From positions 1 through 64,000 of the IMG/VR virus record IMGVR_UViG_3300003937_000092: a stretch of DNA of 64,000 nucleotides; one strand, given 5' to 3'. The stretch comes from an uncultured virus (IMG/VR IMGVR_UViG_3300003937_000092) (Duplodnaviria; Heunggongvirae; Uroviricota; Caudoviricetes). The notes under the pieces were generated by a model that was not told the DNA's origin, ran no database searches, and saw only the letters and a program-made list of their open reading frames with translations. A program made the position numbers and the translations under genes. This document shows positions 38,830-64,000 of this stretch, piece after piece; position 1 is the stretch's first letter; each line of letters begins with the position of its first letter.

Positions 38830-39090
38830 TTAGTCTTCATTAAAATTAATACCATATTTTTCATTCATAGTTTTTCTAAAGTCTTCACTAACTTTTTTCA
38901 AACCTTCATTGATTCCGTTTACACATAAATCACTATATGATTCTACTATATTCATGACAGAAACTTGTTCCATAGGTAAACATTTACTGTCCTCAGTAAA
39001 AATTACAGTGTCTTCACCAAATGATTCAATAGATTCAATAATGTGTGTTGAACCGATTTTATTATCTTTTATTTTATCTCCTTTTTTCAT
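38830..39090 (-). CDS. Hypothetical protein
   Basis: TATATTTG upstream; resembles 38026-38217. Confidence 0.6.
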   Translation of the reverse strand: MKKGDKIKDNKIGSTHIIESIESFGEDTVIFTEDSKCLPMEQVSVMNIVESYSDLCVNGINEGLKKVSEDFRKTMNEKYGINFNED

Positions 39091-39134
39091 ATTACAAATA
39101 TAATTAAATTTTTTGATTTAAACTAATATTATGT

Positions 39135-39365
39135 TTAAAAGTCTTCGTTAGTTAATGTTTTCATTTCCGTATTATTTGGTGGAGTTACAGATTCGGGTGT
39201 TGAACTAAAAACTAATGTTTTTAATAAGAACACAACTAAGATAATTCCAACTATCCAACCGCCAACCCTACCTGACGCGGCAAAGATATTTCCAATACCT
39301 TTTAGTAATTGTGAACCAAATGTTAAAACGAAACCGATAATGACTAATGTGATAATTCCTTCCAT
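39135..39365 (-). CDS. Hypothetical 2-TM protein
   Basis: Hydrophobic; TATATTTG upstream. Confidence 0.6.
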   Translation of the reverse strand: MEGIITLVIIGFVLTFGSQLLKGIGNIFAASGRVGGWIVGIILVVFLLKTLVFSSTPESVTPPNNTEMKTLTNEDF

Positions 39366-39428
39366 AATTTTATTTTTTTATTTATACAAATATAGTGAAT
39401 AATATTCACTTACACAAATTATTGAGCA

Positions 39429-39462
39429 TAAAAAAAACCTCAGTCGGTTAGAACTGAGGTTA
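39429..39462 (-). terminator. Intrinsic terminator of the large ncRNA
   Basis: Minus strand aacctcagtt-ctaacc-gactgaggtt followed by a U-tract. Confidence 0.85.
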
Positions 39463-39484
39463 AGGAAGATATATAATAGAGTAT

Positions 39485-40305
39485 AGAACGCTGAGATTAC
39501 ACGTTTATGGTGACTTGTCTTTAGTGAGATTACCCTATATCGGTTGCTCATGTATCCACTCTCGTTGCCGAAAGTATCAAGTCAGTGTCGGTTATTTGAG
39601 TGAACCACTCTTTTCGTTAACAACTACTCAACTACTACTTTACTCTGTCAAACCTTGCGAGTTCACTAAGGGACGGCCATCCCACCAGGTATTTGATAAT
39701 TGACATCAGGAGACTTGCGGTCTACCGATGACTTCGTTAGTCTATTGACTCGAAGTGTTAGACACCTTTCGTTGTCAACGCCCGAAGAACTTTTGCTCTC
39801 TTTTAGTTTTAGTAAAAGTAACGATGGAAATGAGAAAGATGTGCTTCGGGAGAAGTTTCGTTTCTTTTGAAAACAAAATGCTTCACACCTCTCTGTAAGT
39901 CTGTCAACTTACGGTACTTCAGGAATACGTTAACTTATCGTATCGGAATTCCTTTGTACTGGTACTCAGCCCTACAACACCTGACAGGGTGTGTCGAACC
40001 GTCACCTGTAGCTTTTCCTATTGATATCACTATCTCAACTCTGATATTCCACGGACTCAGAGTGGTCTCGTCCCTTTAGCAGTTGCCCTTAGGGTCTTGA
40101 CCGTAGCCACTTTGTTTAGTTGTCAGAGTAAACTCTGCGAATATTCACGATGTACTATTCTCGTTTCAATCCCTTTAGTCCCATTGCTGGGGTTATCTAA
40201 CGACGCTAAACCGCCGTCAAATGTCATACTTAACCGTTTAAGAAAAAGGGGTTAATCTTTTGTATTCCTTTCACAAACTGTGATGGTTAAGGTGACACTT
40301 ACTAA
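39485..40305 (-). ncRNA. Large structured non-coding RNA, GOLLD-like
   Basis: ~820 nt, raised GC, no ORF on transcribed strand, many hairpins with GCAA/GAAA loops, bounded by promoters, boxA and terminator; ends approximate. Confidence 0.75.
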
Positions 40306-40307
40306 TA

Positions 40308-40482
40308 TTTTCAAAGAACGTCTTCAGTACTCTTACTGAATTGTTTTACAAAACTACAACAAATTTTTTAATCTGTCAAACTTTTTTTTAAAAACTTTCT
40401 GATTTTCTGTTGGGTAAGATATAAATACTCCAATAAATCTCAAAAGTTATACAAATATACAAAAAAATTACTCTCAGACAAG
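40308..40482 (-). promoter_or_regulatory. Tandem promoters plus boxA-like antitermination site
   Basis: TTG-N19-TATATTTG (40481-40452), TATTTAT (40427-40421), TTTG-N20-TAGTTTTG (40380-40349), CGTTCTTTGAAAA (40320-40308). Confidence 0.75.
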
Positions 40483-40527
40483 CCCTTTAAGGGTTTTTTT
40501 GTGTTTTGTATTAAAATTATTGGATAT

Positions 40528-40752
40528 TTACCCTATAATTACTCCATTAGAATCAAAATACTTATCTAAAGCACTTAATCTATCGTCCGCGTCTACTAAC
40601 ATTACTAACGCCTCTTCAGCGTTTTTATAGAAGTCCCCTGTTGAGTGGTCTCCGATTCCTACTGCTTTACTACCAAGTAGTTCAAGTGATAATAATGCCT
40701 TTGCTTTATCTGCCTGTGCAGATGTTTTTAACATATTTACTAATTTGTTCAT
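40528..40752 (-). CDS. Hypothetical phage protein
   Basis: AVGIGDHS motif. Confidence 0.7.
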   Translation of the reverse strand: MNKLVNMLKTSAQADKAKALLSLELLGSKAVGIGDHSTGDFYKNAEEALVMLVDADDRLSALDKYFDSNGVIIG

Positions 40753-41156
40753 TTTAAAATTATTTTTATAAGTTTATTAAATTGTTTTGTCATTGGTTCG
40801 GGTAATTCATCTTTACCAAAATACCCACATTCCGTGTGTTCGTCCCCATCATAAGCGTTTTCTAAATCAGGAAACATCTCTTCTTCAACATCCATAAGGT
40901 AGGTATAAAACATACCTTTAACTTTACTTCCGTCTCTGTTATACCTTTTTATTACCGCGGCAAACTCTATGTCTCCTAACACAGGTAAATCAGTCTCTTC
41001 TATAAACTCTCTAATCGCAGCGTCTTTAGTTGGCTCATCTTCTTCCACACTACCTGCGGGACATGACCAAAAACCTGGTAGAGTTGTTTGTGAGTTTCTT
41101 TTACAAAGTAACACCTTATTATCACATCTTACGATTATTCCTGCGTATTTTTTCAT
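40749..41156 (-). CDS. Nudix hydrolase
   Basis: GSVEEDEPTKDAAIREFIEETD Nudix box. Confidence 0.9.
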   Translation of the reverse strand: MKKYAGIIVRCDNKVLLCKRNSQTTLPGFWSCPAGSVEEDEPTKDAAIREFIEETDLPVLGDIEFAAVIKRYNRDGSKVKGMFYTYLMDVEEEMFPDLENAYDGDEHTECGYFGKDELPEPMTKQFNKLIKIILK

Positions 41157-51497: not shown

Positions 51498-52553
51498 ATG
51501 AAAGAAAAAATTATCAATATACTATCGGGAGGTTCAGGTGAGGTTGAAGACTTTATCAACCGTTATCTCAATGGAGATAAGGATAGTTTTTTTGATTTGT
51601 TAGAAAGGTTTGGGTTACTTCAAAACTCCGACACATACGAAAGTGTTATTGAAATGTTTCCAATGACTTATCTAAGAAAGAGTTATATTGATGACCGTAA
51701 AAAAACTATCGATAACATTGTTTCCACTTATAGTGATATAACTAAGAAAGGTGATAAATATTTTTTAACTCTTGGTGAAAGGTCAGACTTAAGTATTTTT
51801 TTTAAATCAGATGACGGTAATCGTGAAATGTCATCATCGGAAATGGTTAAAAATATTTTAGGTGAAGATGATTGGTTCGAACCATTTAGCGATGTTACTC
51901 AAAATTTGTATACCGATGTTATTGAAGAGTTAAATGAAAAAAATAAATTCTTACTTGCCAAATCAATATCTGAAGAATTATCAGGAACTCAAATTTCACC
52001 CGAAACTGAGTTATTAGAAAATATGGCTAAAGACCAAGGTCACCCCGATTATGTTGATGTTAAAGACCCTATGTTAGTAATGGATATTTTAGAAGAAGAT
52101 GAAACATCTACTAAAGTTTTATTAGATGAAGCTTCTGAAGTTTCAAGTAATTTATATTCACTTCACCATAACTCATATAATACAGCATATACCGATGAAA
52201 AGTATAATGAAATAATGAGTGAAGTTAGAAGTTTATTGGAGATAGATAATAGTGGTGATTGGGAATCTAAGACCATAAAGAATAGTAAAGGTGAGGAGAA
52301 AACTATATATAACTACATCATTGAAGTTACCAAATTCATACCTTTTTTATTTAGTTCAATTTTTAATGATGACTATCAATTAGATGATTATAGAAATGCA
52401 TTTGACTATTATGGTGACTTTGAAGACCTCACTAAAGAAATGATTACTGAGGAAGTAATTGAAGGTGCATCAATGAGTAGAAGTTATTATGATTATGCCG
52501 ACCATACTTTAGTTAAAAAGTATTTAAATGATATGATTATTGATTACGTTTAA
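51498..52553 (+). CDS. Hypothetical acidic protein
   Basis: 351-aa ORF; ATATTTAT upstream. Confidence 0.7.
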   Translation: MKEKIINILSGGSGEVEDFINRYLNGDKDSFFDLLERFGLLQNSDTYESVIEMFPMTYLRKSYIDDRKKTIDNIVSTYSDITKKGDKYFLTLGERSDLSIFFKSDDGNREMSSSEMVKNILGEDDWFEPFSDVTQNLYTDVIEELNEKNKFLLAKSISEELSGTQISPETELLENMAKDQGHPDYVDVKDPMLVMDILEEDETSTKVLLDEASEVSSNLYSLHHNSYNTAYTDEKYNEIMSEVRSLLEIDNSGDWESKTIKNSKGEEKTIYNYIIEVTKFIPFLFSSIFNDDYQLDDYRNAFDYYGDFEDLTKEMITEEVIEGASMSRSYYDYADHTLVKKYLNDMIIDYV

Positions 52554-55500
52554 ACTTTCCCTCTAACTCAGTTAGTTCACCATCTTTATCCTTTAAGATT
52601 AATTCTTGTTCCTTAATTGCTTCAAATAATACTGAGATTAATTGTTCATAACTAACTTTATAACCTCTTTCTTCTGAACCACCAATTAATTCAGGTAAAA
52701 CTTCTTTTACCTCTTGAGCAATAACTCCAATATCTTTTCTACCACCATCAAGTAAAACGGTACCATCGAGATTTTCTTCTTTCCATATAAATTCAACACC
52801 ACGTAGATTTAAAACTTTCTGTAAAGGTGTATCAATTTTTTTAATATTTTCCTTTAATCTTTTATCGGAAAAAGAACCCGCCGGACCTTGGGCTCCTGCC
52901 GGTCCTTGAGTTCCTTGAATACCTTGTGAGCCTTGACTTGAAGTTCGTCCTTTTAAACCTTTTTCTCCGGTTCTACCTTTAATCCCTTTAAGTCCTTTTG
53001 GTCCTTTTTGTCCTGCTGGCCCTGTTGGTCCGCCAGAACCTGTAGGTCCTTTTGGACCTTGCGGACCTTGTGGTCCATCTTTACCAAGTACACCTTTTGG
53101 ACCTTTAGGTCCTTTATAACCTTTATGTCCTTTTAGGCCTTTTGGTCCTTTAGCTCCTTTAGGACCTTTAGGTCCTTTAAGACCTTTTTCAGTACTTGCC
53201 GGTCCTTGTGGTCCTGTATCACCTACGTCTCCTGACCCTTGAGATAATCTTGGTCCTTTTAAACCTTGGGGTCCTTGCGGTCCTCTAGGACCTTTGTAAC
53301 CTTTTGGACCTTTAAATCCTTTTTCCCCTGTATTCCCCTTATGACCTTTAGGTCCTTTGGGTCCTTGTCCACCTTTGAACCCTTTAGGTCCTTTTGGTCC
53401 TTGACTACCTACATTTCCTCTTGGTCCCTTTTCTGAACTTGCCGGACCTTCTTTACCTGTCGGACCTGTCGCCCCTCCAGAGGCTTTGGGTCCTTGTGGA
53501 CCTGTAGGCCCTTGCGGTCCTCGTGGTCCTTGGGGTCCTCGTGGTCCTGGCTCATTACCATCAGCACCTACAGCCCCTTTAGGTCCTTGTGGACCTTGTC
53601 CAGGTTGATAACCTGTAGGTCCTTGTGGACCTTGTCCACCTCTCGGACCTTTAATACCTTTATTACCTTTATCCGTACTTGCCGGACCTTGTGGTCCTGT
53701 AGGTCCATTAAGACCTTGACTAGCTTTAGGTCCTTGTGGTCCTTGTGAACCCTGAGGCCCTCTTGGACCCTTATTACCTTCTGGTCCCCTAACAGAACTT
53801 GCCGGTCCTTGTGGACCTTGTTGACCCGTTGCCGCTCTCGGCCCTTTGTAACCCTTAATACCTTTATCTGATGTTTGTGATTTAAGACCACCTTTTAAAC
53901 CTTTATTACCTTTATCAGTACTTGATGGACCTGTCGGTCCTTGTGGACCTGTATCACCACCAGAACCTTGTGTTGCCTTAGGCCCTTGTGGTCCTAAATC
54001 ACCTTTAATACCTTTATTACCTTGTGGACCTCTATCTGTACTTGCCGGACCTTGTGGTCCTGTAGGTCCATTAGTACCTTGACTAGCTTTAGAACCTTGT
54101 GGTCCTTGCGAGCCTTGGCTTTGTCGTGGACCTATAGCTCCTTTTGGTCCTGCAGTATTACCTGCCGGTCCTTTGGGTCCTGTTGGTCCTTGAATACCTG
54201 TACCTGACGCACTACCTTGGGGACCTCGGTTACCATCATTACCTTGTGGTCCTTTTGGTCCTATTGGACCTCTATCAGTACTTGCAGGTCCTTTTGGTCC
54301 TGTAGGACCTGTTGCCCCATTAGATGCTTTAGGTCCTTGTGACCCTTGTGTACCTCTCCCTGTCTGTAAACCTTTTGGTCCTTTATAACCTTTTAAACCT
54401 TTATCTGTTGAAGATGGTCCCTTATCACCTTGTGTGGTATTTTTAGTACCTTTTGGTCCTGTAGGACCGGTGGGGCCATTTGGTCCTTTAGTACCTTTAT
54501 AACCTTTTTGCCCTTTAATACCTTTATCAGTACTTGATGGACCTGTCGGTCCTTGTCCACCGGTAGTTCCCTTTGGTCCTGTCGGACCTTGAGGTCCTTG
54601 TCCACCTTGATTACCTCTAGGACCTTTTGGTCCTTGTGTTCCTTTATCAGTATTAGTTGGACCTGTTGGTCCTTGTGGACCTTTAAGTCCTTTATCGGCA
54701 TTATTAGGTCCTGTTGGTCCGTTGGGTCCTGTTGGTCCCGTTATACTATTTCCAATAGTTCCTCTCGGTCCATCTGTACCTTTCGGTCCTTTGATACCTT
54801 TGATACCTTTATTACCTTTATTTGTGGACGTACCACTCGGACCTTTTTCAGCTGTTGGACCTGTTGGTCCTTGTGTTCCTCTCGCCCCTTTAGGTGAAGT
54901 ACCAATTGTACCTCTCGGTCCTTGAAAACCTTTAGGTCCCTTATCACCTGTAGGTCCTTGTAGTCCTTTATCTGTATTTGTTGGTCCAATATCTCCACCA
55001 ACGGCAACATCACCTATAAGTCCCTTTTCATTATTACCTTGAGGTCCCTGAGGCCCTTGTGGTCCTCTTAACCCTTTAGTACCTTCTGGTCCTTTTAAAC
55101 CTTTGTCAGAACTTGCAGGTCCAATTGGTCCTTGTGGACCTGTAGGTCCTTGTGACCCTGAACTAGTTGATGATTGTGGTCCGATTAATCCTTTAATACC
55201 TTTGATACCAATTAATCCCTTTAACCCTTTCGTACCTTTATCAGTACTTGCCGGTCCTTGAGGTCCGTTATCTCCACCAGAACCTGTAGGTCCTTTTAGT
55301 GAATCACCCTGCAACCCTCTATCTCCATCAAATCCTTTTGGTCCTGTCGGTCCTTGTGGACCTATTGGTCCTTTAACGGCTGCTGGTCCACCTGGACCTG
55401 TTGGACCTTGTGGTCCGATAAATCCTTTTTCACCTTGTGTACCTATTACACCTCTACCTTGTTTAGGTCCTTTAATACCCTTGATACCTTTAATACCCTT

Positions 55501-56508
55501 GATACCTTTATCACCTTTGTCTGTAGATTGTGGACCTCTTGGTCCTAAATCACCATCAGGTCCTTGTACACCTACAATACCATCAGGACCTTGCGGACCT
55601 TGTGGTCCTGTAAGACCTTTTATACCTTTGTTACCAATAGGTCCTTTATCAGCGGTAGGTCCTGTTGGTCCTTGTGGTCCATTATCCCCATCTGTCGACC
55701 TAACACCTTTATCACCTTGTGGACCTTGATTTCCAAGAATACCTTTTTGTCCCTTTACACCTTTTATACCTTTTGGTCCTTTTTGACCTTTATCTGATGA
55801 TGTCGGCCCTTTTAAACCTGTTGGCCCTTGAGGTGAATCACCACCTATACTACCTTTTGGTCCTTGTTCAGGTTTTAGACCCTTATTTCCTTTAACACCT
55901 TTAAGACCTGTCGGACCTTTAGTTCCTTTATCTGAAGATGTTAACCCTTTTAGACCTGTTGGTCCTTTAAGACCTTTTGTTGAGTCTGACGGCTTTAACC
56001 CTTTTAACCCTTTAGGTCCAACAATACCTTTCTCACCTTGTGGTCCTCGGTTACCTTTATCCCCTTTGACTGAAAGCTCACCTTTGATTCCTTTTTCTCC
56101 GTCAGAACCAATACCACCTTTGATACCGAAGTCACCTTTATCACCTGTAGGTCCAACGATTCCCTGAATACCTTTATTACCTTTTAAACCTTTATCACCG
56201 TCAACACCTTGTAGTCCTTTGAGACCTTTTTGACCTTTAAGACCTTCTGTCTGCCCAACCCAATGACCTCCAGAGTCAACTACCATCATACTACCAACAT
56301 AAAGTTCACTATTAATAACATTAACCTCACCTGGTAATGATAATGGAGTAGCACTATCAGATATTTTAAAAATATTTGTAGAAGACTTAAATACTAAATC
56401 ACCTGTAGTATCTATTTCAATAGTATAATCAACACCTGTACCACTAAAAATTATATGTGGATTGGTGTTTAATGTACTTCCCGTAGGATATATTATAATA
56501 TTAGCCAT
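52537..56508 (-). CDS. Collagen-like tail fibre with C-terminal S74 intramolecular chaperone
   Basis: >1000 aa of interrupted Gly-[11 protein letters not shown]...IGVIAQEV. Confidence 0.9.
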
Positions 56509-59500
56509 TAATCTATTTGTGTTCTTAACCAGTTTATTTGTTCCTCTATGTCTTCAATAAATACTTGTTGACTTTTAATCGCTTCAATAATTAATGCATT
56601 TAATTTATAATACTTAATAGCTAAATAACCATCATCCCTTCTATAAACTACTTCAGGATATAATAAGTTTATTTCTTGTGCTATCATACCAATTGAATGT
56701 AATTTTTGTCTTTCCTTTAAGAAGTCATATCCTGTATAATTTTCATTCCAATCATATTCCGTAACATTAATTTTTAGTAACTTATTCAAAGAGTCACTTA
56801 ATGTTTTAGTACCATGTTTAAGTCTACTATCAGAAGCCCTACAATCGGCACAAGCATATATTTCACAAGCATTTACTACTGATTTAGGTGGTGGTGTAAT
56901 TACCCATGAAAATAAAACTCCACCTAAGTTGACCGCGTCCCATATAGTTATAAAATCTGTAGATAGATTTCTCATACATGGTAATCCCTCAAATTCTCTA
57001 CAATCTTTACAATCTGGGTCAGTATAGAGGATATCACCCTGAGCTAATGGTTGTATATCACCTTTATATACAGTCAAATTTACCTTATCTCCACATGGGC
57101 TACTTCTACCATTACAATACGCACAATCTTCACCTGCTCTTACCGCAATGTCATGAGCGAAACAAAACGCACCACCTGTGGGTCCTTTTATACCTTTATT
57201 ACCTTTTAAACCTTTTGGTCCTGTTGGTCCAGATAACGCTGCTGGTCCATCTGACCCTTGTGGGCCTCTTGGTCCTTGTGGACCTTGAAGACCTTGTGGA
57301 CCACTACCACCTTGTCGACCTTTATACCCTTTAGGTCCTTTATAACCTTTATAACCTTTTGGTCCTGTTGGTCCTTGTGGTCCGGGATTTCCAGCGATAC
57401 CTGTTTGACCCTTATCTGTAGAAGCATTACCTCTCGGACCTTGTGGTCCTCTTGGTCCTGTTTTAGATGATTGTGACCCTTTCGACCCTTGAGGTCCTCT
57501 TGGGCCCTTGTAACCTTTAATTCCTTTATGTCCTTTTAAACCTTTTGGTCCTAATGGTCCTATTGGTCCTGTCGGTCCTTGAGATGTGCTTTGGGTACCT
57601 ATTAGTCCTCTACCACCTTGTGGACCTCTACCACCTTGTGGACCTTTTGGTCCTTTTGGTCCTTTAGTTGTATTAGTTGTTCCTTGTGGACCACGAGTAC
57701 CTTTATCACTATTTGCTGGCCCTGTAGGTCCTAACTGACCCTTTAAACCTTTCTCACCTGTAATACCTTTTAGTCCTTTGAAAGCGGCTGGACCTCCAAT
57801 ACCTACAGCACCTTTTGGTCCTTTTGAAGTACTTTGAGGACCTGTCGGTCCTTGTGGACCTTTTGGTCCTTTTAGTCCTGTTGGACCTGTATCACCATTT
57901 TGAGCGGTCGGTCCATTTGGCCCTCTTTCTCCTTTATAACCTTTAACTGAACTACCAGTTCCTTGTGGTCCTAAAGGTCCTTTATACCCTTTATGTCCTT
58001 TTAACCCTTTTAACCCTTTGAATGCTGCGGGTCCACCTGCACCTGTTGGACCTGTTGGACCACTTTGTGTTCCTTGATTTCCTGTCGGTCCTTTAGGTCC
58101 TATTAAACCTTTTGTACCTTTTAATCCTTTGAATGCTGTCGGTCCTGTCTGTCCTTGAGGACCTCGTGGTCCTTTATCACCAGCAACACCTGTTGTCGCT
58201 CCTTGTGGTCCTAAAGGTCCCTTATATCCTTTAGGTCCTTTAGTCCCTTTTTTACCTTTAATACCTTTAAATGCTGCCGGACCTGTTGGACCTTGTGGTC
58301 CTCCATCGGCAGTTGATGGTCCTTGTGGTCCCTTAGGTCCTTTATACCCTTTATGTCCTTTTAACCCTTTTAACCCTTTGAATGCTGTCGGTCCATTATC
58401 CCCTGTTGGACCTTGAGGTCCACCATCTCCTGTCGCTGAACCTATTGGACCTTTTGGTCCATAAGCCCCTTTAATACCTTTTTGACCTTTAAGTCCTTTA
58501 TAGGCTGTTGGTCCATTATCTCCTCCAGGTCCTGTAGGTCCTTGAGATGTACTTTGTGTTCCTTTCGGCCCTTTAGGTCCTTTAGGTCCTTTATAACCTT
58601 TTATTCCTTTTAGTCCTTTAAATGCTGCCGGACCTGTTGGACCTTGTGGTCCTTGTTCTCCACCAGTACCTGTTGTTGTTCCTCTTCCACCCTGTGGTCC
58701 TCTTGGTCCCTTAATACCTATTAATCCTTTACTACCTTTTACTCCATCAGTTGCTCTTAATCCTTTGAGACCTTTTTGACCCTTAAGACCTTTAACTGTT
58801 GAAGTAGTACCTCTACTACCATCTGGACCTTTATAACCTTTTTGACCTTTTATACCTTTATCACCATCAGTGGCTCTAAAACCTTTTTGACCTTTAATTC
58901 CTTTGTCACCTGCAGATACACTTATTAAACCTTTATCACCAGTAACACCTTTTAACCCTTTTAAACCTTTAGGTCCTTTATTACCTTGTGGTCCTTTATA
59001 ACCTTTTTGACCTTTGATACCTTTATAACCCTTTTGCCCTTTGATACTTTCAGGACCTTGTGGGCCCGCATCACCTTGACTGGCTTTAAGTCCTTTATTT
59101 CCTTGAGGCCCTATTAAACCTTTTAACCCTTTAAAACCTTTATTACCTTTTAATCCTTTAAGTCCTTTATTACCTTGGTCCGCCACTGGTCCCGTTGGTC
59201 CTTGTGGTCCTCCATCACCTTGACTCGCGATTAAACCTTTAGGTCCTTTAGGTCCCTTAACACCTTTCTTACCTTTTAATCCTTTATAACCTTTATTACC
59301 TTTATCTCCCTGTGGTCCTCTTTGACCCTTTTCCCCTGTAGGTCCTAACTCATTACCTTGGCTTGTTGGCCCTTGAGGTCCTTTTGTCCCATCAATACCC
59401 TTTTTACCTTTTAACCCTTTTAATCCTTTAAGTCCTTTAAGACCTTTATCCGCTCCCTCACCATCTTGTGAAACTGGACCTTGAGCTCCTTGGTCAGCAA

Positions 59501-61829
59501 TTGCTCCTTGTGGTCCTTGTGGACCAAGTAATCCTTTTCGACCTTTTAAACCTTTGAGACCTTTATCACCTTTATTACCGGTCAGACCTTTATCGGATTG
59601 AGGACCTGTTGGTCCCGTATCTCCTTGGCTAGCTATTAGACCTTTGACACCTTTAATACCTTTAAGACCTTTATTACCTCTTCTACCTTTAATACCTTTT
59701 TCACCTTTATCGGTAGAAGTTTCACCTCTACCACCTGTAGGTCCTTGGTCACCATCAGGACCTATTTGACCTTTGGGTGAAACACCTATGGAACCATCAG
59801 GTCCTTTAATACCTTTTGGTCCAACAACTCCAACTTCACCTTTTGGACCTTTTAAATCACCAACAGGTCCATCAACACCGATAGGTCCCTTTTCACCTAC
59901 CACACCTTTTGTTCCACTATCGGTATCAGGTCCTTTAGCCCCTTTTAAACCTTTTAATCCTTTTAATCCTTTTAATCCTTTAGTTCCTTTATCGTCACCA
60001 GCGATTCCTTTATTACCTTCGTCACCAGTTTCACCTTGTTGTCTTAGAAAAGACGTTAAAGCGTTTGTAACAACGGATTCCGTAAAATTACTAACAGTAG
60101 GGTCAACATCAAATCCAAAATGTTTTAGTCCTGAACCATTTTTAAAACTACTTTCTAAATTTGTATAACAAGTTTCAGACGTTAAACCTGAATATACATT
60201 TGTTCTTGTTAATGCACTTAAATTTAAGTTTTCAGGACCAACTGAAGTTATGTTATCACCATATCTGTTTAAAAACTCATTACTAGTGATGGTACTACCC
60301 TCAATTGCTGCTACTGCATGTTGAACAAACGCATAAGTTGAAGTACCTCTAAGTGGGTTTACAACTGGATAAACTAAACCTTGAGCATTACCCCCTCTAT
60401 TGGATATAATATCTTCATATACTTGAACATAAGAACAGTAATCGTGTAAATACCTATTCGTATATTCATCACCCGCATTATTATTCCAATAATTACCATT
60501 TAATTCAAATGGTTTATTATACAAATCACTCTTAGTTGGATTACTATTAGTCCCACCTACCTGTCCATGATATAAACCAACAAGACCATCTGACTCATCA
60601 GCAACAATAATTACCAAATAGTTAGTATTATCACCACCAAATGAACCTTGTCCCGATGTTTCCGTATTATTTAAATCACTATGGTCAAAAGGTACACCCT
60701 GAGATATTGTTTCAGCGGCACCTGTATCTAAATTAACACCTCTGTTAATTCTTCTATATATCGTTTCACCATCATTAAATTGTGAGTTTCTTGGTACACA
60801 ATTACCACCTGAGTTAGACTTACAATAATCAGATTGATAAGTTGCATTAGGTACAGCACTATTAAATTCATTAATTTGTGTGTTATCAGATAAGGTACCT
60901 CCGGATAGTGAACCAAGATATGGGTAAGATGCCCACCATAACCAGTTTTCACCATTATGAGAATTTTTACCAATTACCCCCTCGTATAGTTTATTAATAT
61001 CACCATCACCATTTACCGTTTGGAACCAATCTCTAACACTCTGCGAAGCTTCTTTAGCTTTATCACTTGGCATTGATGTCGCGTCATAGAAAACATAAAC
61101 ATCTACATTTGCAGTAATCCCAATTGGTCCTTGAGGTCCTTTTACACCTACCTCACCTTTTGGACCAATTGGTCCTTTATTAGTACCTGTGGGTCCTTGG
61201 TTACCTTTACTCGCCGATAATCCTGTAGGACCTTTCAGTGAGTCACCAATTAATCCCTTTATACCTTTATTACCTTTGAAACCTTTAAACCCTTGTGGTC
61301 CTACTGGACCTTTTAAAGATGTCGGACCTATTGGTCCTGTATTACCCTGAGGACCTATTTGACCTTTGACACCTGTTGGCCCTATAGGTCCTTGGTTAGC
61401 CTTTTCTCCTTTGATACCTTTTAACCCCTTAGTACCTTGGTCACCCTGTGGACCTTGTTCAGTAGAAGTTATACCTTTTAAACCTTTTTTACCTTTTAAA
61501 CCTTTTTCTCCATCAACCGCTCTACTACCCTTAAGACCTGTAGGTCCATTTGGACCTTGTGTACCAGTCGGTCCAATCATATTCATAGGGTAACCCTTCC
61601 ACTTACCTAAGTCATCAATTAGTTCGTTACTATTCTCTTTCTTTACTGAAACAGACGGCATAAACTTTATATTATCTAACTCTAAGTTTGAAGTAATTTT
61701 AAAATCATTACCTAAGTGGGTGTTGAAATTTAATTCACCACTATTATAGTCAATATTAATCATAGTACTATTAGTACCTGAAAAACTGATTGTCCCACCC
61801 GTTGGATTTATTTTAATGTCTCTACCCAT
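56508..61829 (-). CDS. Collagen-like tail fibre with vWA-like insert, Cys-rich domain and S74 chaperone
   Basis: Gly-X-Y tracts; VYVFYDATS...LVIIVADES insert; SDSRLKH...IGMIAQEI. Confidence 0.9.
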
Positions 61830-64000
61830 TTAAAATTTTTGATTTTAATATGTTAATTCTATCTGTTATATTTTCAATACGTGTGTTTTGTTCTTGTATA
61901 GAACCTATACCAATCGCAACTAATTTACCGTACTCAAGTTTTAGATAACCACTCTCACTATTAAATACAACTTCAGGTATAACTTTTTCAATATCTTGAG
62001 CGATAAATCCAAAATCTTCACCATAATTATTTTCAAATTTAGTTGACCCACCTTTCCATGTAAACTTTACACCGTCAATTAATTTTAACTTACTTAGATT
62101 ACCTTTTAAAGATTTAATATTATTTTTTAATCTTTTATCTGATGCTGGACCTTGTAGTCCCTGTGGTCCTTGTAAACCTCTTGGTCCTTTTGGACCTTTA
62201 GGTCCTTGTCCACCAGTTGGCCCTGTCGCACCACCACTACCAGCCGGTCCTTGTGGTCCTGTCGGTCCCTGTGGTCCACTTGTTCCTTGTCCTCCTCTTG
62301 GTCCCGTACTACCAATTGGCCCTCTTAGTCCTTTTACCCCCTTTACTGTTGATGTTGGTCCTTTTGGTCCTATCGGACCTTTATCCGTACTTGCCGGACC
62401 TTGTGGTCCTGTTGGACCTGTTGGTCCAAGGTCATTACCAATTGGCCCTGTTGGTCCTTTTACTGTTGAAGTATTACCTTGCGGACCTATTGGTCCTTGA
62501 CTACCTTGTTTTTCAATAGGGCCTTTTAGTCCTTTAAGACCCTTTAACCCTTTTTCAGTACCTGCTGGTCCTTGTGGTCCCGTTGGTCCATTTGAACCTC
62601 CACCACCTGTTGGCCCTGTTGGACCACCTGACCCATTTGACCCACCTGGACCTGTTGGTCCATTTGAACCTCTTGGTCCTTTATAACCTTTTATACCTTT
62701 ATCTGTAGATTGTAGACCTCTTGGTCCTTGTGAGCCTTGTGGTCCTCTATTTCCTTTAGGTCCTTTACTACCTTGTAGACCTTTAAGACCTTTATCTGTA
62801 CCTATAAAACCTTTTTGACCTTTATCTGTAGATTGAGAACCTTGTGGTCCCTTAATACCTTTACGTCCCTTTGGCCCTTTTCGCCCTTTTAATCCTTTAA
62901 CACCCTGTAGACCCCTTTCTGAACTTGACGGTCCTATTGGTCCTTTTACTGTTGAATCATTTCCTCTTGACCCTTGAGGTCCTTGATTACCTCTATTACC
63001 CTTCGGCCCTTTTGGCCCTTTAAGTCCCTTTAAACCTTTTTCAGTACTTGGCTGTCCTTTTAATCCTTTTACTGTTGAATCATTTCCTCTTGGTCCTTGC
63101 GGTCCTCGTATACCTTTATCACCTTTTATTCCTGAATCACCAACTGCACCTTTTTGACCTTTAGTATTATTAGTTGGACCTTTTGGTCCTTGTGTAGTTG
63201 AAGCTGAACCTCTTGGTCCTTGCGGTCCTTGCGACCCCTGATTTCCTCGATTACCTTTAACTCCTTTTAAACCTTTTGGACCTTTAGTTGTATTATCTAT
63301 CCCTTTAAACCCTTTAACCGTTGAATTGGCTCCTCTAACACCTTGTGGTCCTTGGTTACCTCTATTACCCTTTGGCCCTTTTAAACCTTTTAGTCCTTTT
63401 AGCCCTTTTTCAGAATTATTTGGTCCTTTCGCCCCTTTTACTATTGATGTCGCACCTTGTGCCCCTCTATTACCAACAGAACCTCTTGGCCCTTTAGGTC
63501 CTTTATAACCTTTCTGTCCTTTAATACCTTTAGTAGTACTGGTTATACCTTTATACCCCTTTACGGTTGATGTTGCTCCTTGTGGTCCTCTTGGACCTTG
63601 ACTACCTCTATTACCTTTAACTCCTTTTAAACCCTTTAACCCTTTATGACCTTTAGTGTCATTGGTTGGACCTTGTGGACCCGTTGGTCCTGCAGCGGCT
63701 TGGTCCCCCTGTGGTCCCTGTGGACCTTTTTGACCTTTATCAGTAGATTGTTTTCCTTGTTGTCCTCTATTACCAACCGGACCTCTATCGGTACTTGCCG
63801 GTCCTGTTGGTCCTTGTGCGGCTTGACTCCCTCTACTTCCTTGTGGACCTTTTTGACCCTTATCAGTAGATTGTGAACCTCTATCGCCTTGAGGACCCTT
63901 AAGTCCTTTTTCCTCAGACTGTGGACCTCTATTACCTTTGTCGGATGATACACCAATATTACCTCTGTTACCTGTTGGCCCTTGCGGTCCTTTACCTCCT
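61822..64000 (-). CDS. Third collagen-like tail fibre with S74 chaperone (5' end beyond window; not in ORF track)
   Basis: Gly-X-Y codons to window edge; [12 protein letters not shown]...[16 protein letters not shown]...ILNG-stop at 61822. Confidence 0.88.

What the first reader, a model, noticed from the sequence alone, without database searches (positions are those of the whole stretch)
39429..40482. ~0.85-kb ornate ncRNA expressed like an rRNA operon (tandem promoters, boxA, terminator)
Seen on minus strand: two host-type promoters and one phage-type motif, then CGTTCTTTGAAAA, then ~820 nt without ORF but dense in helices, e.g. ccca-GCAA-uggg, cagag/cucug, acucuga/ucagagu, cuaca/uguag, guaagu/acuuac, cccgaag/cuucggg, acuucg/cgaagu, ucg-GCAA-cga, ending GUGUAAUCUCAGCG before a strong terminator. 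Known: boxA recruits Nus antitermination/folding factors at rRNA operons; GOLLD and ROOL are large phage-associated RNAs of unknown function. Inference: a GOLLD-like or new giant RNA made abundantly throughout infection using the host rRNA antitermination machinery. No tRNA is seen adjacent.
Basis: partly seen in the sequence, partly recalled or inferred. Interest (0 to 1): 0.85.

Follow-up and report, generated by a model that had tools for sequence, protein, structure and literature searches.

The report
GOLLD phage RNA with rRNA-style leader
This is a copy of the already known giant phage RNA called GOLLD, carried by a marine phage, and it is preceded by the same short signal that bacteria place in front of their ribosomal RNA genes, which hints at how the RNA is made in bulk.

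Summary
The locus is real, and it is a GOLLD RNA gene. Rfam RF02032 matches window 39488-39893 (minus strand) over the full model at 293 bits, against a cut-off of 150. Upstream lies a covarying 5' domain of about 400 nt. So this is not a new RNA class.

CGTTCTTTGAAAA (40320-40308) lies 24 nt downstream of a predicted start site. It follows a 5' hairpin and a Bacteroidota-type promoter (TTGAC-N19-20-TAnnTTTG).

- All 45 unique leaders of this GOLLD clade in IMG/VR carry CGTTCTT-type boxes. 34 of the 45 are strict GTTCTTT[AG]A.
- 40 of the 45 have a hairpin just 5' of the box, with about 20 different stems.
- The same box sits in leaders of Bacteroidota-like 16S genes. 19 of 21 match a relaxed motif, and one shares an identical 19-mer.
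- Nine GOLLDs of other clades lack it.
- In four seawater or marine RNA libraries, contigs over the RNA have far higher depth than flanking contigs. Contig depth is weak evidence.

Nus-factor recruitment is inferred, not shown. The verdict is a known family with an undescribed, testable, rRNA-like expression leader.

The parts
40452..40481 (-). Distal promoter-like site P1. TTGTCT (40481-40476), a 16-nt spacer, then the -7 box TATATTTG (40459-40452). Predicted +1 is about 40447.
   Evidence: Sequence. The block is conserved in relatives, for example as CTTGACA...TACCTTTG. The Flavobacterium sigma-A -7 box is TAnnTTTG at -12 to -5 (PMC9723704, passages). TATNTTTGTA occurs 11 times in the window against 3.3 expected. 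No start site was mapped.
40412..40430 (-). Conserved upstream block B (GAGTATTTATATCTTACCC), role unknown.
   Evidence: Conserved as (G/A)TATTTAT-N4-5-(T)(C)AC(C) in relatives. There is no second good copy in the window. 21 matches with up to 2 mismatches are seen against 22.5 expected.
40349..40380 (-). Proximal promoter-like site P2. TTTGACA, a 17-nt spacer, then the -7 box TAGTTTTG (40356-40349). Predicted +1 is about 40344.
   Evidence: TTGAC-N19-20-TAnnTTTG sits at the same place in the unique leaders. The -7 box position comes from PMC9723704.
40323..40340 (-). 5'-terminal hairpin TTCAGT-aagagt-ACTGAA (boxB-like position).
   Evidence: RNAfold gives -6.0 kcal/mol, z about -4. A hairpin ends no more than 5 nt before the box in 40 of 45 unique clade leaders, with about 20 different stem sequences.
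40308..40320 (-). boxA-like element CGTTCTTTGAAAA.
   Evidence: 34 of 45 unique clade leaders have GTTCTTT[AG]A and the other 11 have CGTTCTT variants. In the 22-leader set the background was 3 hits in 142,394 nt. The 19-mer GACGTTCTTTGAAAATATT is identical in the 16S leader L179.
40219..40300 (-). First long stem of the RNA, between the box and the conserved core, with ACCCC (40252-40248) in an unpaired loop.
   Evidence: RNAfold gives -20.6 kcal/mol, z -3.2. The equivalent segment in 11 lineages folds into a closing stem of unrelated sequence, with CCCC unpaired or at the loop edge. It was not resolved by MAFFT plus RNAalifold.
39894..40215 (-). Conserved core of the GOLLD 5' domain (starts GGCGGTTTAGCGTCG).
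   Evidence: Alignment A1 and RNAalifold covariation. nhmmer matches to relatives.
39488..39893 (-). GOLLD 3' domain (Rfam RF02032 match). It includes the A/U-rich linker (about 39834-39789) and a loop with self-complementary GGCC (39678-39675).
   Evidence: 293.2 bits, model 1-416 of 416. Coordinates. A GGCC-type palindromic loop is the kind of element that forms symmetric kissing loops in the solved GOLLD cage (PMC12286853, passages). The correspondence to that loop is inferred.
39429..39461 (-). Intrinsic terminator (10-bp stem, 6-nt loop, U run).
   Evidence: Conserved in relatives with a changed stem in L018/L120.

Best explanation
The locus is a GOLLD RNA gene of a large marine phage whose host is probably a member of the Bacteroidota.

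The RNA proper runs from about 40300 to about 39488, roughly 810 nt. It has a variable but covarying 5' domain, an A/U-rich linker and the conserved 3' domain. By homology with the solved GOLLD RNAs it should assemble into an RNA-only multimeric cage. That step is inferred.

The gene is transcribed from one or two host sigma-A-type promoters (TTGAC-N19-20-TAnnTTTG). Its transcript begins like a host ribosomal RNA operon, with a short 5' hairpin followed within 2-3 nt by a boxA element, CGUUCUUUGAAAA.

The proposed mechanism is as follows. The nascent boxA is bound by host NusB-S10, which converts RNA polymerase into the rRNA-type antitermination and chaperone complex. The long untranslated transcript then escapes Rho-dependent termination, is made fast and in bulk, and folds co-transcriptionally. 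It ends at the strong terminator at 39461-39429.

Shown here: family membership, covariation, conservation of the leader architecture, and identity of the box with 16S-leader boxes. Inferred: Nus binding, antitermination, cage formation, and the host.
For: Identity and context:
- Rfam GOLLD, full-length, 293 bits against a cut-off of 150.
- 195 consensus pairs, 73 with compensatory change, across both domains in 19 distinct relatives.
- Phage context: tail fibres, endolysins, thymidylate synthase and methyltransferases. G000 is a virus record.

Leader architecture:
- In a first set of 22 unique leaders, 19 have GTTCTTT[AG]A within 200 nt of the core. The background is 3 hits in 142,394 nt.
- In a second, wider set of 54 evaluable unique leaders, 45 belong to this clade and 45 of 45 carry a CGTTCTT-type box. 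34 are strict.
- 40 of the 45 have a hairpin ending no more than 5 nt before the box, with about 20 different stems.
- The box-to-core spacing varies (20, about 50, about 100 nt) while the box stays.
- In relatives, the phage tRNA-Met gene upstream of GOLLD is preceded by the same box.

Match to rRNA leaders:
- Among 115 metagenomic 16S starts, 21 are Bacteroidota-like with at least 150 nt of leader.
- 14 of the 21 have G[CT]TCTTTGA, and 19 of the 21 match a relaxed motif, 77-223 nt before the 16S start and behind TAnnTTTG promoters.
- One (L179) shares the 19-mer GACGTTCTTTGAAAATATT with the window.

Published parallels (passages read):
- B. subtilis rrn operons start with a small 5' hairpin immediately followed by a boxA-like AUGAUCUUUGAAA that binds NusB. 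The E. coli box is UGCUCUUUAACA (PMC13753749).
- The gamma-proteobacterial consensus is GYTCTTTAANA (PMC5725501).
- rrn sites have the order boxB then boxA. boxA is the main determinant, and the complex acts as an RNA chaperone ring (PMC8632103).

Host clues:
- TATNTTTGTA occurs 11 times against 3.3 expected.
- Shine-Dalgarno-like motifs lie before 2 of 70 ORFs, against 9% in the control.
- Bacteroidetes lack Shine-Dalgarno sequences (PMC6847099, abstract in listing).

Abundance hint: in 4 of 4 RNA libraries from 4 studies, error-free contigs over 39486-40417 have a word depth of 49-1777. Contigs on the flanks in the same runs have 2-45.
Against: - No experiment shows that NusB-S10 binds this RNA, or that Bacteroidota use boxA antitermination at all.
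- The 45 leaders are related sequences, so the counts are not independent events.
- The box alone occurs at chance frequency in the window.
- Nine unique GOLLDs of other clades have nothing within 2 substitutions of GTTCTTTGAAA at -900 to -300 from the 3' domain. The L312 type has no G[CT]TCTTT-like box at all. The box is therefore not a requirement of GOLLD as such.
- Five of the 45 clade leaders lack the hairpin.
- No boxC was identified.
- Calling the 21 rRNA leaders 'Bacteroidota-like' rests on a recalled 13-nt 16S signature and on their promoter type, not on a taxonomic tool.
- The RNA evidence is from assembled contigs of runs chosen because they hold this stretch. The tool warns that such depth cannot rank genes and that contig ends are not transcript ends. 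High-end contig coordinates (40380, 40417, 40670, 40682) fit neither predicted start site.
Confidence: 0.7

Rival explanations
1. It is a GOLLD RNA, but the conserved CGUUCUUUGAAA element is not a Nus-factor site. It could be part of the RNA's own architecture, for example a tertiary partner or the 5' edge of P1. It could also be a processing signal or the binding site of a phage protein, and its likeness to rRNA boxA would then be coincidental or mimicry for another purpose.
For: The box abuts the first structured stem of the RNA. GOLLDs of other clades do without it. The motif is short and A/T-rich in an A/T-rich genome, and one copy in the window is expected by chance. No Nus binding was tested.
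Against: - The box keeps its place next to the promoter and 5' hairpin rather than next to the RNA core. The box-to-core distance is 20, about 50 or about 100 nt.
- It also precedes tRNA-Met genes in related phages, where no GOLLD structure follows directly.
- Its consensus equals that of 16S leaders with the same promoter type, including an identical 19-mer.
- The hairpin-then-box order is that of rrn leaders (PMC13753749; PMC8632103).
Confidence: 0.22
2. It is a new class of giant RNA that only resembles GOLLD.
For: The 5' half is outside the Rfam model. No GenBank phage matched by blastn.
Against: The Rfam match is full-length at about twice the gathering score. [quoted passage not shown] That is what is seen here.
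Confidence: 0.01
3. The region encodes small proteins, and the apparent structure is incidental.
For: Mechanical ORFs of 31-70 aa overlap the region on both strands.
Against: 73 base pairs have compensatory changes. There is a covariance-model match. No ORF is conserved as such, and the substitutions in A1 follow pairing rather than codon positions.
Confidence: 0.01

Closest known systems
GOLLD RNA (Rfam RF02032). Solved examples: env-38 14-mer cage and Streptococcus agalactiae 12-mer.
   Same: Full covariance-model match of the 3' domain. A covarying 5' domain of about 400 nt. An A/U-rich linker. A total of about 810 nt. Phage context. Relatives sit downstream of tRNA-Met, as reported for env-38 (PMC12286853 and PMC12990946, passages).
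   Different: There is no tRNA within 64 kb here. The papers I could read say nothing about a promoter, boxA or antitermination leader. 'antitermination' and 'Nus' have 0 occurrences in PMC12286853, and 'boxA' has 0 in PMC5737381. The founding paper (Weinberg 2009) and Morgado 2020 are not held.
rRNA operon leader nut-like site (boxB hairpin, boxA, boxC) and the Nus-factor antitermination/chaperone complex.
   Same: A promoter-proximal 5' hairpin is followed at once by a boxA of the host rRNA type. There are possibly tandem promoters. The product is a long, untranslated, highly structured RNA (PMC13753749, PMC8632103).
   Different: The product is a phage RNA, not rRNA. No boxC was recognised. 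No leader-trailer helix was seen. Binding of Nus factors is untested.
Phage lambda nut sites (boxA then boxB, read by protein N).
   Same: A phage uses a boxA in a nascent transcript to alter host RNA polymerase.
   Different: The order here is hairpin then boxA, the reverse of lambda (PMC8632103). No N-like protein was identified. The target is a stable RNA gene, not a delayed-early operon.
ROOL and OLE RNAs (other large ornate bacterial or phage RNAs).
   Same: Large, structured, multimer-forming RNAs. ROOL is also phage-associated and often near tRNAs (PMC12286853; PMC5737381).
   Different: No Rfam match to either, even with a permissive scan of 39000-41000. Their sequences and folds are distinct.

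Membership tests
GOLLD RNA (RF02032) | Match to the family covariance model above its gathering score. | tested here: met
   293.2 bits against 150, model 1-416 of 416, E 8e-83.
GOLLD RNA (RF02032) | A conserved 3' domain joined by a linker to a larger, less conserved, structured 5' domain. Total around 800 nt. | tested here: met
   5' core 40215-39894 plus stem 40300-40219. 195 consensus pairs, 73 compensatory, in both halves. Not compared helix by helix with the published P1-P27.
GOLLD RNA (RF02032) | Phage or prophage context, often beside tRNA genes. | tested here: met
   Phage genes all around and a virus record. The tRNA adjacency is NOT met in this window (0 tRNAs), but it is 'often', not always. 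Relatives L120, L140 and L145 have tRNA-Met upstream.
GOLLD RNA (RF02032) | Self-assembly into a closed RNA-only multimer (12- or 14-mer cage). | not testable with these tools
   The only evidence is a self-complementary GGCC in a hairpin loop (39678-39675). This is consistent with a symmetric kissing loop (PMC12286853).
rrn-type antitermination leader | A boxA sequence matching that of the host's rRNA leaders. | tested here: met
   The consensus aCGTTCTTTGAAAtaTT compares with aaGTTCTTTGAAAgatt in 18 distinct Bacteroidota-like 16S leaders. L179 has an identical 19-mer. The host itself is not known. The taxon label of those leaders rests on a recalled signature.
rrn-type antitermination leader | Position in the 5' leader of the transcript, sense strand, close to the promoter. 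| tested here: met
   The box starts 24 nt after the predicted +1 of P2. The arrangement is the same in the clade. Start sites are predicted, not mapped.
rrn-type antitermination leader | boxB-like hairpin upstream of boxA (rrn order). | tested here: met
   40 of 45 unique leaders, with about 20 different stems. Five lack it. boxB is reported as dispensable in rrn (PMC8632103).
rrn-type antitermination leader | boxC downstream of boxA. | not tested
   No conserved GU-rich element was noticed after the box. No consensus for Bacteroidota was available to search with.
rrn-type antitermination leader | NusB-S10 binding and resistance to Rho or intrinsic terminators. | not testable with these tools
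   Needs biochemistry or genetics.
Lambda-type nut site | Order boxA then boxB, with an N-type protein. | tested here: not met
   The hairpin precedes the box. No N-like protein was sought or found.

The most novel reading that the evidence does not exclude
Marine Bacteroidota phages present their GOLLD cage RNA, and the tRNA genes beside it, to the host as if they were ribosomal RNA. A host-type boxA at the 5' end of the transcript recruits NusB-S10 and the rRNA antitermination/chaperone complex. This is what allows an 800-nt untranslated RNA to be completed, folded co-transcriptionally and accumulated to very high levels. A bolder extension is that the abundant boxA-bearing leader also titrates Nus factors away from host rRNA synthesis during infection.
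Probability: 0.45. Interest if true: 0.7.

Novelty: new member of a known kind. Interest (0 to 1): 0.55.

Why it matters
GOLLD is one of the largest and most elaborate bacterial or phage RNAs. Its cage structure was solved in 2025, yet its function and biogenesis remain unknown (PMC12286853; PMC12990946).

A conserved rRNA-type leader gives a concrete, testable handle on how such an RNA is produced and folded in cells. It links GOLLD to the ribosome-biogenesis machinery. It also extends boxA-dependent control to a phage non-coding RNA and to a phylum, the Bacteroidota, where this machinery is hardly studied.

The finding supplies a sequence-defined set of natural variants: 45 leaders, three spacing classes, and hairpin-less forms. 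It also points to seawater metatranscriptomes in which the RNA seems abundant.

If the box proves non-functional, the finding reduces to one more GOLLD copy.

Tried and rejected
- **GenBank phages.** blastn (distant mode) of 39400-40500 found no match.
- **Relatives.** No bacterial host genome could therefore be reached that way.
- **Genome contigs.** The single scan with the GOLLD pattern gave one locus (L164, in an archaeal MAG). It is not GOLLD: there was no nhmmer hit and no Rfam hit, so it is a chance match. No prophage copy of this clade was found among species representatives by that exact pattern.
- **First viral scan.** The 14 specified bases were too unspecific. Only 10 of 116 loci were GOLLD by nhmmer.
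- **Leader alignment.** MAFFT plus RNAalifold on 8 leaders gave no leader structure because the alignment was too poor. I folded each leader singly instead.
- **Block B as a phage promoter.** It is not recurrent in the window.
- **The box by itself in the window.** It is not significant.
- **RNA contig ends as transcript ends.** Low ends are at 39486, 39491, 39508 and 39510. High ends are at 40380, 40417, 40670 and 40682. They do not coincide with the predicted starts or the terminator, and unitigs also break at strain variants. I take them as no evidence for starts. At most they are a weak hint that the abundant species ends near the conserved 3' motif rather than at the terminator. Stretches without contig cover are not interpreted.
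- **Generality across GOLLD.** Nine unique loci of other clades have no box within 2 substitutions. L312, L296 and L319 have none by a looser pattern. L294 (GATCATTCAAAA) and L308 (TTGTTCTTACACAG) have only candidate boxes.
- **Partial Rfam scan.** In one search only 20 of the 30 loci that nhmmer had not recognised were scanned with Rfam.
- **Literature.**
  - GOLLD plus boxA returned 4 papers, all plant papers and irrelevant.
  - GOLLD plus ROOL plus phage returned 7 papers, of which 6 were listed. I opened only PMC12286853 and PMC5737381 and saw no leader, Nus or boxA statement in the passages read.
  - boxA, NusB, phage-encoded and noncoding RNA returned 21 papers, 15 listed, none on GOLLD by title.
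  - boxA plus Bacteroidetes plus antitermination plus rRNA returned 2 papers, neither opened for this point.
  - Weinberg 2009 (PMC4140389) and Morgado 2020 (PMC7549688) are not held. Whether they mention the leader is unknown to me.
  - The supplements of PMC12286853, which include the env-38 sequence, were not opened.
Full report
**What is there.** On the minus strand of window 39429-40482 lies a non-coding RNA gene. Rfam's GOLLD model (RF02032) matches 39488-39893 over all 416 model positions at 293.2 bits, against a gathering score of 150. It was the only family above threshold in the 64 kb window. The match was confirmed on the sub-region with its alignment and on the whole 72,156-base virus record G000, which holds one copy. 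ARAGORN finds no tRNA in the window. Mechanical ORFs over the locus are at most 70 aa. PHROGs annotate the surroundings as a phage: giant collagen-like tail fibres, two endolysin-like proteins, thymidylate synthase, methyltransferases and a NUDIX hydrolase. The RNA sits between small minus-strand ORFs (40752-40528 upstream, 39365-39135 downstream). No GenBank phage matched by blastn.

**Structure.** Pattern scans of IMG/VR gave relatives that nhmmer recognises over the whole length, including the half that the Rfam model does not cover. An alignment of 19 distinct sequences (A1) gives an RNAalifold consensus of 195 pairs. 73 of these have at least one compensatory double change, and they are spread over both domains.

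- Six are in that consensus.
- cccgaag/cuucggg is paired in 19 of 19 sequences with one C-G to U-A double change.
- cuaca/uguag conflicts with a strongly covarying pairing of the same bases with columns 124-129.

The conserved core starts at 40215 (GGCGGTTTAGCGTCG). The 82 nt before it (40300-40219) fold into a long stem whose sequence differs in every lineage, while an ACCCC stays in an unpaired loop. The RNA proper is therefore about 810 nt. That is in the range of the published 833-nt env-38 GOLLD, which has a 5' region of 420 nt and a 3' region of 413 nt (PMC12286853, passages). A hairpin loop carries a self-complementary GGCC (39678-39675). Its correspondence to the symmetric kissing loops of the solved cage is inferred.

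**The leader.** Upstream elements, with coordinates:
- Distal promoter-like site P1: TTGTCT, 16 nt, then TATATTTG (40481-40452).
- A conserved block of unknown role (40430-40412).
- Proximal site P2: TTTGACA, 17 nt, then TAGTTTTG (40380-40349).
- A hairpin, TTCAGT-aagagt-ACTGAA (40340-40323).
- The box, CGTTCTTTGAAAA (40320-40308).

TAnnTTTG at -12 to -5 is the sigma-A -7 box of flavobacteria (PMC9723704, passages). This places +1 at about 40344 for P2, 4 nt before the hairpin, and at about 40447 for P1. TATNTTTGTA occurs 11 times in the window against 3.3 expected, with 0 of 100 shuffles reaching 11. Several copies sit directly before ORF starts. Shine-Dalgarno-like motifs precede only 2 of 70 ORFs. 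That fits a Bacteroidota host (PMC6847099, abstract in listing). The host assignment is an inference.

**Conservation of the leader.** In the first set (the window plus 46 loci, giving 22 unique upstream regions), 19 of 22 have GTTCTTT[AG]A within 200 nt of the core. The other three have GTTCTTACAC, GTTCTTTTAT and GTTCTTTACA. Elsewhere in these loci the motif occurs 3 times in 142,394 nt.

A wider scan anchored in the 3' domain (88 loci, 59 unique upstream regions, 54 long enough to judge) gave these results:
- 45 unique members of this clade. 34 have the strict motif and 11 have variants that all keep CGTTCTT.
- A hairpin of at least 4 bp ends no more than 5 nt before the box in 40 of the 45. 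About 20 different stem sequences occur, for example TCAGT/ACTGA, GATGA/TCATC, GGTGA/TCACC, CGGGG/CCCCG, GTCAGG/CCTGAC, and a long ATCAGAAAC...GTTTCTGAT. Five lack a hairpin.
- The box-to-core distance falls in three classes (20, about 50, about 100 nt), while the promoter-hairpin-box unit stays together.

In relatives with a tRNA-Met gene upstream of GOLLD, that tRNA is itself preceded by (C)GTTCTTTAAAATA. These sequences are related, so the counts are not independent events. Even so, the contrast between the invariant box and the diverged flanks argues for selection on the box.

I therefore fetched 115 metagenomic 16S starts with the 27F primer. Of these, 21 have at least 150 nt of leader and begin with the 16S signature that I recall as typical of Bacteroidota. 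They also have TAnnTTTG-type promoters.
- 14 of the 21 carry G[CT]TCTTTGA.
- 19 of the 21 carry a relaxed form, 77-223 nt before the 16S start.
- Their consensus is aaGTTCTTTGAAAgatt, against aCGTTCTTTGAAAtaTT for the GOLLD leaders.
- L179 shares the 19-mer GACGTTCTTTGAAAATATT with the window, and it has a hairpin directly before the box.
- The rarer GOLLD variant GTTCTTACAC resembles the GTTCTTAAAAG of two such rRNA leaders.

Leaders of other phyla in the same sample carry their own forms: GTTCTTTGAAAACT, GATCTTTGAAAACT, GCTCTTTGACAA and GCTCTTTAACAA.

Published work agrees (passages read):
- E. coli has UGCUCUUUAACA. B. subtilis has AUGAUCUUUGAAA directly after a small 5'-terminal hairpin, and it binds NusB (PMC13753749).
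- The gamma-proteobacterial consensus is GYTCTTTAANA (PMC5725501).
- In rrn sites the hairpin precedes boxA, boxA is the main determinant, and the resulting complex forms a chaperone ring at the RNA exit (PMC8632103).

**Limits of generality.** Other GOLLD clades do not show the box. Nine unique loci have nothing within 2 substitutions of GTTCTTTGAAA at -900 to -300. Of five Rfam-confirmed divergent GOLLDs (which scanned 20 of the 30 unrecognised loci):
- Three (L312, L296, L319, all with tRNA arrays downstream) have none.
- L294 has GATCATTCAAAA behind a TTGACG-17-TACTCT promoter.
- L308 has TTGTTCTTACACAG.

The leader is thus a feature of this clade, not of GOLLD as a family.

**Expression.** The stretch is held by public runs. 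18 rows hold at least half of its sampled words, 7 of them on record as RNA, from 11 studies, labelled seawater, marine or viral metagenome (four have no organism label). Only assembled contigs were available. In 4 of 4 RNA libraries from 4 studies, contigs without a single difference cover the RNA:
- X1: 39491-40670, in three pieces.
- X3: 39510-39798 and 40032-40682.
- X8: 39486-40380.
- X9: 39508-40417.

Their mean word depths are 49-1777. Contigs on the flanks in the same runs have 2-45. Equal DNA contamination cannot give such a contrast, so the RNA is probably far more abundant than its neighbours' transcripts. However, the tool warns that contig depth cannot rank genes, that these runs were picked for holding this stretch, and that contig ends are not transcript ends. 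I use this as a hint only. The timing of expression was not addressed.

**Mechanism, known versus inferred.**
- Shown: GOLLD membership, covariation, the conserved promoter-hairpin-box unit, and its identity with 16S-leader boxes.
- Inferred from established knowledge of rrn antitermination (PMC8632103, PMC13753749): the nascent box binds NusB-S10, and RNA polymerase becomes Rho-resistant, fast and chaperoning. A long untranslated RNA needs exactly this.
- Inferred from homology: assembly into a cage like the solved 12- and 14-mers (PMC12286853; PMC12990946).

**Novelty.** In the held library I found no statement linking GOLLD to boxA, Nus factors or antitermination (searches; word counts). 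The founding paper and one later paper could not be read. I rate the finding as a new member of a known kind that carries an apparently undescribed, testable expression signal.

Noticed in passing
window 52537-63999 (-): Three very large ORFs (1323 aa, 1773 aa and more than 725 aa, open-ended) match many tail-fibre and collagen-like PHROGs in 10-15 repeated stretches. Their region has 39-45% G+C against about 31% elsewhere.
   Followed up: partly
window 40412-40430 (-): A conserved block, GAGTATTTATATCTTACCC, lies between the two promoter-like sites. It is kept in relatives as (G/A)TATTTAT-N4-5-(T)(C)AC(C) but has no second copy in the window. Its reverse complement contains TATAAATA. The role is unknown.
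   Followed up: partly
L120, L140, L145 (upstream 330 nt): In related phages the order is: promoter, a terminator-like hairpin (CCCACAAC...GTTGTGGGATTTTTTT), boxA-like box, tRNA-Met(CAT), second promoter, hairpin, box, then GOLLD 20 nt later. A terminator-like hairpin before the box and tRNA looks like an attenuator that a boxA complex might read through.
   Followed up: no
L294:1249-1689 (-): A divergent GOLLD (226 bits) has a tRNA (Rfam, 55 bits, 1547-1619) inside its linker, as reported for Mycolicibacterium GOLLD. A GATCATTCAAAA element follows a TTGACG-17-TACTCT promoter about 366 nt before the 3' domain.
   Followed up: partly
L312, L296, L319: Another GOLLD clade (G+C 0.45) is followed by arrays of 3-4 tRNAs. 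It is preceded by four tandem GGTTGC(A/G)-type repeats (GTTGCAAAACGGTTGCAAAATGGTTGCGGATTAGGTGCAAAAAGGTTGCG) and has no boxA-like box.
   Followed up: no
window 40248-40252 (-) and equivalents in relatives: An ACCCC(C) stays unpaired in the loop of the otherwise unconserved first stem, in 11 lineages. It is a candidate tertiary or pseudoknot partner of one of the conserved GGGG/AAAGGG stretches.
   Followed up: partly
window, all ORF starts: Only 2 of 70 ORFs have a Shine-Dalgarno-like motif at -20 to -5. TATNTTTGTA is enriched (11 against 3.3 expected) and sits 4-22 nt before several start codons, suggesting very short or absent 5' UTRs.
   Followed up: partly
window 40480-40496 (+): The hairpin between the upstream ORF and P1 reads as a terminator only on the plus strand (T run). 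On the GOLLD strand it has no U run, and it is not conserved in relatives. RNA-library contigs of two runs cross it.
   Followed up: partly
L339 (contig of 297,164 bases); G000: One member of the GOLLD clade lies on a 297-kb viral contig. G000 (72 kb) is rated 25% complete. These RNAs may therefore belong to jumbo phages.
   Followed up: no
window 39486-39510: RNA-library contigs of four studies stop 25-80 nt before the terminator's end, just after the conserved GUAAUCUCAGCG. This could reflect 3' trimming, or merely strain variation breaking the assembly.
   Followed up: no
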